From the IMG/VR virus record IMGVR_UViG_3300025713_000650, positions 83,640-147,639 of that record: a stretch of 64,000 nt of DNA, one strand, 5' to 3'. The stretch comes from a virus. Its lineage: Duplodnaviria > Caudoviricetes. Shown one piece after another: positions 9,094-12,153 of the stretch. The position numbers and the translations under genes are program-made. Numbering within the stretch: the first letter of the stretch is position 1; every line of letters starts with the position of its first letter. The notes below the pieces were generated by a model that was given only the letters and a program-made list of their open reading frames with translations, was not told the origin of the DNA and ran no database searches.

Positions 9094-10296
9094 TCACTCA
9101 TTAAATGTTTTTTTACTTAAATTATGCATTTTTTCAAAGAATTTATTTTTATATTCACTAACATCGTTAATAAATACACTTTGTAAACGAATCAAATATA
9201 AATATATATCTCTATCCTTTGTTGCCATTTGTGCTATAAATGTAAAAAACATTACACCTATATCTGAAGGAATATCACATAAAAATAAGGCAATATTTCT
9301 TTTTTGTTGATCATTTAATTCTGGTTTTTCTTCTAAATGATTCATTATAGATTCAAAAAGTCTATTTAAACTAAGATTATCTAATTTATTTATTATTGAT
9401 TTATTGGATTCAAAATTATTTATGATTTCTTCATAATTTATTTTATTACTAGAATCCTTTACAAAATCAATAAAAATTCTAGACAATGACATATTTAATA
9501 ATCCTGGAAAAATTATATTAAGATTTTTTAAATTACTTTCAATACCACCATTCATTTCATATCCCCATAAAATATCTGAACATTTCTCCCAAGATGCTGG
9601 ATTTGAATATACTCTTCCTTTTCTTTGGGATTCAAAATCATATAAAAATTTGGGGTTATGTTTAATAAAATCAATTACAAACTTATGAAACTTTTGATTT
9701 TCAGCATATTTTAAAAATGTATCAACTGATAAATCACAATAAATATGAACACTTCTTCTTAAACCAGCGGCATCTTCCAATGTATTCATTGAATATTCTT
9801 GATCATCTGGATTATCTAATGTGATAATAAACCAACCTTTTGGAAAATCATGTGTATGTAATCTATGTTCATTTTGAATTTGCCACATTAATTGCTGTAA
9901 ATCATGATCACCTCTACCCATTTCATCAATAACAAATAAACCAAAGGAATTTTCATCTTTTGGAATAAAATCACTAAATAACATACTAAATTGTTTATTT
10001 TCTGGATCTGGAAAAGGACATAACATATCATCTCTTCTTAGGACAGAACTATTTAATTTAACAATATCAAATTTAATATTTAATTCTTTTGATAATTCTT
10101 CAGCTATTTGAAAACATGATTGTGTTTTACCTATTCCGGCGGGACCGATAATGTGAAAATTATTTTTACCTATATATTTTCCATTATTCCAACATTTTAT
10201 TACATTTTTAATATTATTTTTTATAATTGTTTTAAGATGTTCAATATTTGAACTAGCTATATTTAGTTTATCAACATATGCAATTTCTTTACTCAT
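9094..10296 (-). CDS. MoxR-like AAA+ ATPase
   Basis: GPAGIGKT, FVIDEMGR, NPASWEKCS; adjacent to VWA partner. Confidence 0.8.
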   Translation of the reverse strand: MSKEIAYVDKLNIASSNIEHLKTIIKNNIKNVIKCWNNGKYIGKNNFHIIGPAGIGKTQSCFQIAEELSKELNIKFDIVKLNSSVLRRDDMLCPFPDPENKQFSMLFSDFIPKDENSFGLFVIDEMGRGDHDLQQLMWQIQNEHRLHTHDFPKGWFIITLDNPDDQEYSMNTLEDAAGLRRSVHIYCDLSVDTFLKYAENQKFHKFVIDFIKHNPKFLYDFESQRKGRVYSNPASWEKCSDILWGYEMNGGIESNLKNLNIIFPGLLNMSLSRIFIDFVKDSSNKINYEEIINNFESNKSIINKLDNLSLNRLFESIMNHLEEKPELNDQQKRNIALFLCDIPSDIGVMFFTFIAQMATKDRDIYLYLIRLQSVFINDVSEYKNKFFEKMHNLSKKTFNE

Positions 10297-10330
10297 TCAC
10301 TATTCTCCTATTCACACATTTTTCTCGAAA

Positions 10331-10375
10331 AAAATCCGGGTTGGATAAAAATATAATTCATCCAACCCGGATTTT
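10331..10375 (-). terminator. Intrinsic terminator, 16-bp perfect stem
   Basis: AAAATCCGGGTTGGAT/ATCCAACCCGGATTTT inverted repeat ending in a T-run on the minus strand. Confidence 0.75.
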
Positions 10376-10490
10376 AACTTATTTCTTCTTGGTGAACTGT
10401 CTCCCGCTTTGAGAAGCGGGAGCTTCCTAGTCAATATCTCTACTGAGACAAGTTTACCTAGGCTTACAAGGCCGTTCCGGCCTCTTTTAA
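10376..10490 (-). ncRNA. Orphan TnpB-type omegaRNA (IS200/IS605 right end) with 16-nt 3' segment
   Basis: Minus strand AGGCCGGAACGGCCT...GAAGCTCCCGCTTCTCAAAGCGGGAGACAGTTCAC has the same layout as the TnpB right end at 41667-41780 (GGAAC loop hairpin, terminal hairpin, GTTCA end). Confidence 0.7.
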
Positions 10491-10509
10491 TCTTTTTACA
10501 GAGCTAAAC

Positions 10510-11385
10510 TTAAAAAACAATATCATCTAAAGAAAATGATTCACCTGTCACTTCTTCCATTGTTTTTTCTTCTTCTTTTGGTTTATTATCTTCGAATTTA
10601 ATTTGATCTGTTGCTTCTTGTTCTTTTCCTAAAGTTTGAGACCAATCAAATTTTTCATTAAATTGTGGTAAAATTTCTTTTGCCTTTTTGACAATTTGTT
10701 TCACATAATCATCTGGTATTTGTATTCCCATTGCAAGATCAAAGACTGATTTATCACCATATCTTGAAGGTTTCCAACCGATTGTAATCTTTGTTACAAA
10801 TCTCTTATGATTAATAATACTCTTTTCTAACTTCATTGTTTCTTCTGTTGATGGTAAAATAAGAGGTTCGAGATCCAATCTAAATAATGATGTTAAATAT
10901 TCGGAAATATTAGAATACTTAATTCCCTTTCCTCTAATAAATCCAAATACAGCTTTATTATTTTCATCTATTAATGGTTTACCATTTGGAGAACAAATCA
11001 TACCCGAAACTATAAGATTGCTTTTACAATCTTTACAAAATGGAGATGCTGCTCTTTCTGCTGAATTTCTACCACAAATATTACCACTTGTACCTTTCCA
11101 AACCTTACCTGTTTTATAACTAAAACACCCTACTCTATCTTGACCATTTTCTTTAACTGTTTTAACTAGAACTTCTTTAATGTGAGTAATAATCATATTA
11201 ACTTCATCAAGATTATATTTAAATCCTCTTATTTGAAGTTTATTTGCTTCTTCGGAAACTCCAATATGATTTGTTCTTGTCTTGCCTGCAATGTAAATTG
11301 AATGGAAAAACTCATCTTCAGGCTTTTTTGTTTCTTTTACGGAGAACCCAGTATTACTTAAATCAGAAAAATCTTCATACTTCAT
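10510..11385 (-). CDS. Probable single-stranded DNA-binding protein
   Basis: Cys cluster, acidic C-tail ending SLDDIVF typical of SSBs, replication context. Confidence 0.45.
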   Translation of the reverse strand: MKYEDFSDLSNTGFSVKETKKPEDEFFHSIYIAGKTRTNHIGVSEEANKLQIRGFKYNLDEVNMIITHIKEVLVKTVKENGQDRVGCFSYKTGKVWKGTSGNICGRNSAERAASPFCKDCKSNLIVSGMICSPNGKPLIDENNKAVFGFIRGKGIKYSNISEYLTSLFRLDLEPLILPSTEETMKLEKSIINHKRFVTKITIGWKPSRYGDKSVFDLAMGIQIPDDYVKQIVKKAKEILPQFNEKFDWSQTLGKEQEATDQIKFEDNKPKEEEKTMEEVTGESFSLDDIVF

Positions 11386-12058: not shown

Positions 12059-12132
12059 TTAAAAAAATAAAAATTTTTCCTATAGACAAAACTTCTTAAT
12101 TTTCACAAAAACACCTCCCTTGTATTTATTTT

Positions 12133-12152
12133 TCATTAATTAATATATATAG
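12133..12152 (-). promoter_or_regulatory. Conserved phage promoter-like motif CTATATATATTAATTAATGA
   Basis: Exact copy of the motif at 52901 and 53439; intergenic, followed by a GGAGGTG SD. Confidence 0.75.
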
Positions 12153-12153
12153 A

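What the first reader, a model, noticed from the sequence alone, without database searches (positions are those of the whole stretch)
10331..10500. Orphan TnpB omegaRNA with a guide-length (16-nt) segment closed by a terminator
Seen: directly after the SSB-like gene lies a compact right-end scaffold whose GGAAC loop can pair with the terminal GTTC. It is followed by exactly 16 nt (CAAGAAGAAATAAGTT) and a 16-bp-stem terminator. No tnpB ORF or left end is attached; only a possible last few codons (RLKEAGTAL*) remain. Known: TnpB guides are about 16 nt of sequence 3' of the right end. Inference: a stand-alone, co-transcribed guide RNA for a TnpB/TldR-type protein encoded elsewhere, i.e. a phage-domesticated guide cassette or a decoy for host TnpB.
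Basis: partly seen in the sequence, partly recalled or inferred. Interest (0 to 1): 0.72.

Follow-up and report, generated by a model that had tools for sequence, protein, structure and literature searches.

The report
Leftover TnpB guide-RNA scaffold in phage
This is a real TnpB guide-RNA (omegaRNA) scaffold, but it is a 118-base leftover of an IS605-type transposon recently inserted behind a phage gene. Its "guide" and terminator are the DNA that was already there, so it is a transposon remnant and not a purpose-built guide cassette.

Summary
The scaffold is real. On the minus strand, window 10392-10509 scores 102 bits against a covariance model of an omegaRNA family that normally lies directly behind tnpB genes, mostly in Clostridia. 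tnpB-linked copies score 84-123 bits.

It is a precise 118-nt insertion after TTTAA. That TTTAA is the family's target-adjacent motif (TAM) and overlaps the stop codon of the upstream gene. Five independent assemblies of the same phage (99-100% identical flanks) carry the empty site, TTTAA joined directly to CAAGAAGAAATAAGTT plus the terminator. Three assemblies carry the insert. An 82%-identical relative is also empty and keeps the 16-nt spacer and terminator.

The parent element has a left end, an intact 356-aa TnpB and a 98-99% identical scaffold. It sits at a ligase-tRNA locus in sibling genomes, but that locus is unoccupied in the window's own genome. The same scaffold also occurs as a 94-nt copy upstream of a portal gene and at a third site.

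Verdict: a non-autonomous IS605 right-end/omegaRNA fragment. It could still guide a TnpB supplied in trans against the empty allele, but this is untested. Other first-stage notes of this scan flagged the same stretch (e1-5688054, e1-5688067).

The parts
10392..10509 (-). Inserted 118-nt fragment of an IS605-family element: tnpB 3' tail, spacer, and the omegaRNA scaffold up to the right end
   Evidence: BLAST breakpoints against five empty-site assemblies fall exactly at window 10510 and 10391. Covariance model R1 scores 102 bits. It is 98-99% identical to the 3' end of the full-length element in L148-L152.
10510..10514 (-). TTTAA target-adjacent motif (TAM). Its TAA is the stop codon of the upstream gene.
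   Evidence: Ten independent left-end junctions of this IS family all read TTTAA followed directly by the left end. The parent element in L148 and the 94-nt copy in L129 do the same.
10496..10509 (-). Remnant of the last codons of tnpB (GTTTAGCTCTGTAA, reading ...SLAL*)
   Evidence: Identical to the end of the intact 356-aa TnpB gene in L147-L152, which reads ...AACCTGTTAA GTTTAGCTCTGTAA.
10469..10483 (-). omegaRNA stem A (6 bp, GAA loop)
   Evidence: RNAalifold on 55 sequences: four of the six pairs show compensatory changes.
10426..10462 (-). omegaRNA stem B with inner hairpin, holding the invariant core GGTAAACTTGT..C..TAG..ATATTGAC
   Evidence: Covarying pairs at alignment columns 44/80, 46/78, 58/67 and 59/66. 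The core pattern hits 31 viral and 87 genome contigs.
10401..10422 (-). Stem C. This is the right-end subterminal hairpin, of the same type as the left-end hairpin that TnpA would bind.
   Evidence: Covariation. It resembles the left-end hairpins TCTCCCA..TGGGAGA of the family.
10392..10400 (-). Right-end tail ACAGTTCAC, the last bases of the element
   Evidence: Same-genome copies of the family diverge immediately after GTTCAC.
10376..10391 (-). 16-mer CAAGAAGAAATAAGTT. It sits in the guide position but is the ancestral spacer between stop codon and terminator.
   Evidence: It follows TTTAA directly in empty alleles L128, L131, L133, L135, L137 and L138. L127 has a 16-nt spacer at the same place. 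There is no second match in the window.
10328..10375 (-). Ancestral intrinsic terminator of the upstream gene
   Evidence: About 18-19 bp hairpin plus a U-run. It is present unchanged in the empty alleles and conserved in the 82% relative L127.
10510..11385 (-). Upstream 291-aa gene (possible gp32-like ssDNA-binding protein). The fragment lies in its 3' UTR.
   Evidence: Synteny with the downstream ATPase gene is conserved in relatives.
9094..10296 (-). Downstream 400-aa AAA-type ATPase gene
   Evidence: phrog_1297 ATPase, E 6e-39. It is 41% identical to the syntenic gene in L003 and L004.

Best explanation
Window 10392-10509 (minus strand) is a 118-nt fragment of an IS200/IS605-family tnpB element. 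It comprises the last 14 nt of tnpB, a short spacer, and the complete omegaRNA scaffold up to the right end (...GTTCAC).

It sits exactly 3' of a TTTAA target-adjacent motif (TAM) that overlaps the stop codon of the upstream gene. It lacks the left end and tnpB, so on its own it can neither be moved by TnpA nor cut DNA. The 16 nt and the terminator after it are the DNA that was there before the insertion.

Shown: identity, boundaries, TAM, the insertion polymorphism, and an intact parent element in sibling genomes.

Inferred:
- The fragment arose from a full-length copy, either by loss of the left end and tnpB in place or by an aberrant TnpA event. The break is immediately after an internal TAM-like GTTAA.
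- It is transcribed as part of the upstream gene's 3' UTR.
- Like any IS605 right end, its RNA would direct a cognate TnpB supplied in trans to the empty allele (TTTAA + CAAGAAGAAATAAGTT). The filled allele would be immune because GTTCAC replaces the TAM.

Most likely it is now a passive passenger with only this latent guide capacity.
For: Identity of the scaffold:
- Homology to regions just 3' of tnpB in Clostridium phage c-st and in plasmids.
- The core pattern occurs in 118 contigs, mostly Clostridia. Most of those with enough upstream DNA carry a full tnpB 28-70 nt before the core.
- Strong covariation: 11 of 23 pairs have double changes.
- R1 scores the window copy at 102 bits, against 84-123 bits for tnpB-linked copies.

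Boundaries and TAM:
- The TAM is TTTAA at 10 independent left ends.
- The right end falls after GTTCAC.

Insertion polymorphism:
- Eight assemblies encode the identical downstream protein. Five are empty (L131, L133, L135, L137, L138) and three are filled (L132, L134, L136), with breakpoints at 10510 and 10391.
- L128 (99% identical upstream protein) and L127 (82%) are also empty. L127 keeps the terminator and a 16-nt spacer.
- Distant relatives have 9-34 nt gaps here and no scaffold.

Parent element:
- It reads TTTAA, left-end hairpin, intact 356-aa TnpB (D/E/D residues and zinc finger), the same scaffold, GTTCAC. It is found in L148-L155 and L161-L164.
- The ligase locus that hosts it lies on the same 127-kb record as the window's filled allele (L156 and L132, both Ga0208694_1000099), but there it holds no element.

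Sister copies: a 94-nt copy precisely after TTTAA upstream of a portal gene, with four empty alleles, and a third site in L130.
Against: - No full-length element was seen at this exact locus in any of the 8 assemblies, so deletion in place is not shown here.
- The left junction is exact (TAM followed directly by internal sequence). A random deletion would rarely give this. It points to either a TnpA-type reaction or TTAA microhomology, and these cannot be told apart.
- The scaffold is fully intact, and near-identical copies lie at 3 or more sites. That would also fit an element that is still spreading.
- No expression data could be obtained.
Confidence: 0.85

Rival explanations
1. Guide-only selfish element. 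The fragment lacks a left end but is still actively maintained or spread. In cells co-infected with sibling phages that carry the intact TnpB, its RNA loads TnpB, which cuts the empty allele. Repair from the filled genome then copies the 118 nt across (homing in trans).
For: - The scaffold is intact and scores within the range of functional copies.
- A cognate intact TnpB with a 98-99% identical scaffold exists in the same phage species and the same sample series.
- Filled and empty alleles co-circulate, 3 against 5 assemblies.
- The empty allele is exactly TAM + guide.
- Near-identical copies lie at 3 or more loci.
- Meers et al. note that gene-less PATEs often encode omegaRNAs that would need TnpB in trans (PMC10055086).
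Against: - There is no evidence of expression or processing.
- The window's own genome lacks the TnpB element at the ligase locus, and its only tnpB is a gutted shell with a different scaffold.
- Homing explains retention at one locus but not the arrival of copies without a left end at new loci.
Confidence: 0.25
2. One reading: a phage-domesticated stand-alone guide cassette, or a decoy that soaks up host TnpB. The 16-nt guide would have been selected for, and would be delimited by the terminator.
For: Sense orientation inside a transcription unit, and exactly 16 nt between the right end and the terminator stem.
Against: - The 16-mer and the terminator pre-exist in empty alleles and in the 82% relative.
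- The insert is polymorphic among 99-100% identical genomes.
- Sister copies have 22 nt before a terminator, or no terminator.
- No TldR-like or other tnpB-derived gene is adjacent.
- The 16-mer has no other match in the window.
Confidence: 0.04
3. The fragment has been co-opted as a plain RNA structure in the 3' UTR, for example as a stabiliser or a pause/attenuation element, independent of any TnpB.
For: Strongly folded RNA (z = -6.2) placed between the stop codon and the terminator of a replication-module gene.
Against: Most sibling genomes do without it. The structure is fully explained by descent from the omegaRNA family. There is no lineage-specific change away from the parent sequence.
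Confidence: 0.03

Closest known systems
omegaRNA (reRNA) / right end of IS200/IS605-family tnpB elements, in the clade found mostly in Clostridia (for example CST045 of Clostridium phage c-st; the parent TnpB is 68.5% identical to it)
   Same: Same scaffold sequence and covarying structure. Same right-end boundary (GTTCAC). Same TTTAA target-adjacent motif. The guide position is the 3' flank.
   Different: There is no tnpB and no left end. Only the last 14 nt of tnpB survive.
PATEs: gene-less IS200/IS605 mini-elements that keep a left end and a right end and often encode an omegaRNA (Meers et al. 2023, PMC10055086). An example in this family is the Sarcina sp. JB2 plasmid copy, L006.
   Same: Gene-less, carries an omegaRNA scaffold, and would need TnpB in trans. 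L006 shows a left-end hairpin joined directly to the scaffold.
   Different: The window copy has no left-end hairpin. It is therefore not a canonical PATE and should not be a substrate for TnpA.
TldR-associated guide RNAs (nuclease-dead TnpB repressors; Wiegand et al., PMC10705468)
   Same: A TnpB-type scaffold used outside an intact transposon. Some are prophage-borne (from the paper's abstract and my own knowledge).
   Different: No TldR or tnpB-like gene is adjacent. The guide is not a conserved match to a promoter. The locus is a recent insertion polymorphism.

Membership tests
IS200/IS605 TnpB omegaRNA (Clostridia-type clade) | Sequence and secondary structure match scaffolds that lie directly 3' of tnpB genes | tested here: met
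   R1 scores 102 bits, E 2e-19. tnpB-linked copies score 84-123 bits. All four helices are present, and 11 of 23 pairs covary in the family.
IS200/IS605 TnpB omegaRNA (Clostridia-type clade) | The scaffold ends at the transposon right end, and the flank beyond it is unrelated between copies | tested here: met
   Similarity ends after GTTCAC in all comparisons.
IS200/IS605 TnpB omegaRNA (Clostridia-type clade) | The element is inserted 3' of the family's target-adjacent motif | tested here: met
   TTTAA precedes 10 independent left ends and precedes the window insert. The empty site reads TTTAA followed directly by CAAGAAG.
IS200/IS605 TnpB omegaRNA (Clostridia-type clade) | A cognate tnpB gene overlaps or lies just upstream of the scaffold | tested here: not met
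   Only 14 nt of the tnpB tail remain. tblastn finds no tnpB nearby.
IS200/IS605 TnpB omegaRNA (Clostridia-type clade) | The RNA is expressed and processed to scaffold plus about 16-nt guide, and is bound by TnpB | not testable with these tools
No whole genome or RNA data are held.
PATE (gene-less IS200/IS605 mini-element) | Both a left end and a right end with TnpA-type subterminal hairpins | tested here: not met
   The right-end hairpin (stem C) is present. The left-end hairpin motif scan finds nothing in the window, and the 24 nt to the left of stem A are tnpB tail plus spacer.
PATE (gene-less IS200/IS605 mini-element) | Multiple dispersed near-identical copies | tested here: inconclusive
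   Three sites verified: window, L129 and L130. Two more are reported by scan note e1-5688041 but were not checked. The left breakpoints differ (118 nt against 94 nt).
TldR-type domesticated guide RNA | Adjacent nuclease-dead tnpB homologue | tested here: not met
   The flanking proteins have no OrfB/TnpB domains. The upstream protein models as an OB-like fold.
TldR-type domesticated guide RNA | The guide is conserved and complementary to a cellular or phage target other than the insertion site | tested here: not met
   The guide-position 16-mer is the ancestral flank. There is no second match in the window within 2 mismatches.

The most novel reading that the evidence does not exclude
In this large-phage population, omegaRNA-only fragments without a left end may be generated repeatedly at TTTAA sites, with breaks at internal TAM-like motifs (GTTAA, TTAAA). 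They may then persist as 'guide-only' gene drives. Each would hijack the TnpB of sibling genomes during co-infection to cut its own empty allele, and would be copied in by recombination. That would be a parasite of the TnpB element itself.
Probability: 0.2. Interest if true: 0.65.

Novelty: new member of a known kind. Interest (0 to 1): 0.3.

Why it matters
The finding itself is an ordinary decayed insertion sequence, and the apparent "designed" geometry of 16 nt plus a terminator is coincidental.

What is useful is the natural experiment around it. One phage species has co-circulating empty and filled alleles at two loci (the gp32-like gene locus and the portal locus). An intact cognate TnpB is present in only some genomes. 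The TAM and guide can be read directly from sequence. This makes TnpB-mediated homing between co-infecting phages, and the fate of tnpB-less omegaRNA fragments, directly testable.

Tried and rejected
- Rfam has no family for this scaffold. At gathering thresholds only the IscB HEARO RNA matches in the window, and the permissive scan of the region gave only chance hits.
- No tRNA genes were found in the window.
- A whole-genome search was not possible for the window or for the metagenome records.
- The downstream ATPase gave no relatives in viral contigs.
- The exact-protein lookup for the gene upstream of the L129 copy found nothing. The lookup for the L130 gene returned only the same contig.
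- The loop/tail pseudoknot was tested on 55 sequences and shows no covariation.
- A search for a second target of the 16-mer in the window found none.
- The simple terminator scan missed the long hairpin, which is seen only by folding.
- Contig L147/L149 joins the ligase-locus left flank to the portal right flank through the element. I do not use it as proof of a full-length copy at the portal site, because it may be a recombinant or an assembly chimera.
- No tnpA was found in the window or in any fetched phage locus.
- Pfam and PHROGs give no family for the upstream protein.

Full report
**1. What is at the coordinates**

All nearby genes run on the minus strand. A 213-nt gap lies between ORF 10510..11385 (291 aa) and ORF 9094..10296 (400 aa, AAA-type ATPase, phrog_1297). 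Read on the minus strand, the gap contains:
- three hairpins;
- ACAGTTCAC;
- the 16-mer CAAGAAGAAATAAGTT (10391-10376);
- an 18-19 bp terminator hairpin with a U-run (10375-10328);
- 31 nt with a ribosome-binding site.

The fold is far more stable than shuffled sequence (z = -6.2). Rfam has no family for it. The only curated hit in the window is the IscB HEARO RNA at 48898-49139.

**2. It is a genuine TnpB omegaRNA scaffold**

- blastn links window 10413-10498 to DNA lying immediately after, or at the very end of, tnpB genes. These are in Clostridium phage c-st (CST045) and in C. botulinum, C. sporogenes and C. novyi plasmids.
- Similarity runs through ...AGTTCAC and then stops in every comparison.
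- The invariant core pattern (GGTAAACTTGT..C..TAG..ATATTGAC) occurs in 31 viral and 87 bacterial contigs, mostly Clostridia. Where enough upstream DNA is held, most carry a full tnpB ending 28-70 nt before the core.
- An alignment of 55 members gives a four-helix consensus in which 11 of 23 pairs show double compensatory changes.
- The covariance model built from it scores the window copy at 102 bits (E 2e-19). That is inside the 84-123 bit range of tnpB-linked copies.
- Same-genome copies with different flanks fix the right end right after GTTCAC.
- Ten independent left ends all read TTTAA followed directly by the left end, which carries a TCTCCC...GGGAGA hairpin. The family's target-adjacent motif (TAM) is therefore TTTAA.

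- The GGAAC-loop/GTTC pseudoknot has no covariation support. Stem A closes to a GAA triloop that varies while GTTC never does.
- 'RLKEAGTAL*' is not the tnpB tail. The true remnant is GTTTAGCTCTGTAA (...SLAL*) at 10509-10496.

**3. The decisive comparison: filled and empty alleles**

- The upstream protein has a 99%-identical homologue on a short contig (L128) and an 82% homologue (L127).
  - L128 reads ...GTTTTTTAA followed directly by CAAGAAGAAATA.
  - L127 reads TAA, a 16-nt spacer, then the same terminator, with a 95-nt gap in total.
- An exact-identity lookup of the downstream ATPase returned eight long contigs from independent assemblies of the same phage (99.1-100% nucleotide identity).
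  - Five are empty: L131, L133, L135, L137, L138.
  - Three are filled and identical to the window: L132, L134, L136.
  - BLAST breakpoints fall exactly at window 10510 and 10391.
- Distant relatives (43-46% identity) keep the gene order, with 9-34 nt gaps and no scaffold.

So 10392-10509 is a precise 118-nt insertion after a TTTAA whose TAA is the stop codon. The 16-mer and the terminator are ancestral. The boundaries share no direct repeat, and the outgroup is empty, so the insert is the derived state.

**4. The parent element and sister copies**

An exact 42-nt probe from the scaffold found two more copies in metagenome contigs.
- L129 carries a 94-nt copy (stem A to GTTCAC), again precisely after TTTAA. 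It lies upstream of a T4-like portal gene and is followed by 22 nt and a different terminator. Four other assemblies carry the empty site there.
- L130 is a third site with no terminator.

One contig with the same portal gene (L147) led to an intact 356-aa TnpB with RuvC D/E/D residues and a zinc finger. It is 68.5% identical to c-st TnpB.
- Its element reads TTTAA, left-end hairpin, tnpB ending ...CTGTTAA GTTTAGCTCTGTAA, a scaffold 98-99% identical to the window's, then GTTCAC.
- Its usual home is after an NAD-ligase gene cluster and before tRNA genes (L148, L150-L153, L155, L161, L163, L164).
- The ligase locus lies on the same 127-kb record as the filled allele of the window locus (L156 and L132, Ga0208694_1000099). 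There it carries no element.
- No tnpA was found anywhere in this material.
- The window's only tnpB is a shell. Its middle is replaced by a GIY-YIG endonuclease gene, and its scaffold is related but different (27.7 bits).

**5. How the fragment arose (inference)**

- The window insert begins immediately after the parent's internal GTTAA.
- The 94-nt copy begins after GATTAAA.
- Both left junctions are exactly at the flank's TTTAA.

This fits two routes:
- a TnpA-type event that uses an internal TAM-like site, for example nested insertion followed by excision from the outer left end to the inner right end, or aberrant cleavage;
- deletion by TTAA microhomology after a full-length insertion.

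I could not distinguish them. No full-length copy was seen at this locus. The one contig that places the full element next to the portal flank has the ligase-locus left flank, so it may be a recombinant or a chimera.

**6. How it most likely works now**

Without a left end and tnpB, the fragment is immobile and has no nuclease. It lies in the sense orientation between a stop codon and its terminator, so it should be transcribed as 3' UTR (inferred).

Established TnpB biology (Meers et al., PMC10055086) says an omegaRNA guides TnpB to the TAM-flanked empty site. Here that site is TTTAA + CAAGAAGAAATAAGTT, which is exactly the co-circulating empty allele. The filled allele is protected because GTTCAC replaces the TAM. 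This could happen only if TnpB were supplied in trans, for example by a co-infecting sibling phage.

My estimates:
- about 0.85 that this is simply an IS-derived remnant and not a domesticated cassette;
- within that, about 0.25 that trans-guided homing really operates.

**7. Comparison, novelty and score**

- By sequence, structure, boundary and TAM it belongs with IS605-family omegaRNAs. As an element it fails the tnpB-adjacency and left-end criteria.
- It is not a canonical PATE. A true PATE of this family, with a left end joined to the scaffold, exists on a Sarcina plasmid (L006).
- It is not TldR-like.
- Truncated copies of this family are common in bacterial genomes.

I therefore rate it a new member of a known kind, interest 0.3. 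The value lies in the well-defined natural polymorphism, not in a new mechanism.

Noticed in passing
window 41667-43057 (-): A tnpB 'shell'. The first ~78 and last ~63 codons of a TnpB are 45-46% identical to the parent TnpB. The middle, which should hold the RuvC core, is occupied by a frameshifted GIY-YIG/NUMOD homing-endonuclease gene. Its own omegaRNA (41667-41793, ending GGTTCAA) matches model R1 only weakly (27.7 bits). Scan note e1-5688071 also flagged it.
   Followed up: partly
window 47530-49139 (-): IscB gene (RRXRR + HNH domains, 440 aa) with its HEARO omegaRNA upstream (Rfam RF02033, 134.8 bits). This is a second type of RNA-guided nuclease element in the same phage.
   Followed up: partly
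L156:5887-6090 compared with L161: At the ligase-tRNA locus, genomes carrying the element lack about 196 nt, which includes most of a 79-aa ORF. This stretch lies between two TTTAA sites in genomes without the element. The element therefore comes with a TAM-to-TAM adjacent deletion, or results from recombination between two copies.
   Followed up: partly
L147/L149 (ENA ERZ27247346 k141_1939889): This contig joins the ligase-locus left flank, through the full tnpB element, to the portal-gene right flank. It is either an in-vivo recombinant between two copies of the element or an assembly chimera.
   Followed up: partly
L006:1930-2090 (Sarcina sp. JB2 plasmid p1): A true gene-less mini-element of this family. 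TTTAA and a left-end hairpin are joined directly to the omegaRNA scaffold (R1 100 bits). It is PATE-like.
   Followed up: partly
L119:1-91 compared with window 43036-43126: A 3.2-kb contig binned as Muribaculaceae shares 92% identity over 91 nt with the left-end region of the window's tnpB shell. It also carries a scaffold of the Clostridia-type family. This may be a clue to the host, or a mis-binned phage fragment.
   Followed up: no
window 10510-11385 (-): The upstream 291-aa protein has no Pfam or PHROG family. It is widespread in metagenomic phages (86 homologues). It has four invariant Cys and an acidic ...FSLDDIVF tail. The AlphaFold model (pLDDT 79) gives weak Foldseek matches to T4/RB69 gp32 and RPA, so it may be a divergent zinc-containing ssDNA-binding protein.
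   Followed up: partly
window 12098-12153 compared with L129: A 57-nt stretch is 82% identical between the window and the portal-locus contig. It overlaps the 17-bp intergenic motif that scan note e1-5688062 proposed as a phage promoter.
   Followed up: no
L131, L133, L135, L137, L138 compared with the window (upstream 1405 nt): All five empty-allele assemblies show 5 mismatches to the window across the upstream 1405 nt, whereas the three filled assemblies show none there. If the five are the same positions, which was not checked, the insert would mark one sub-lineage of the phage.
   Followed up: partly
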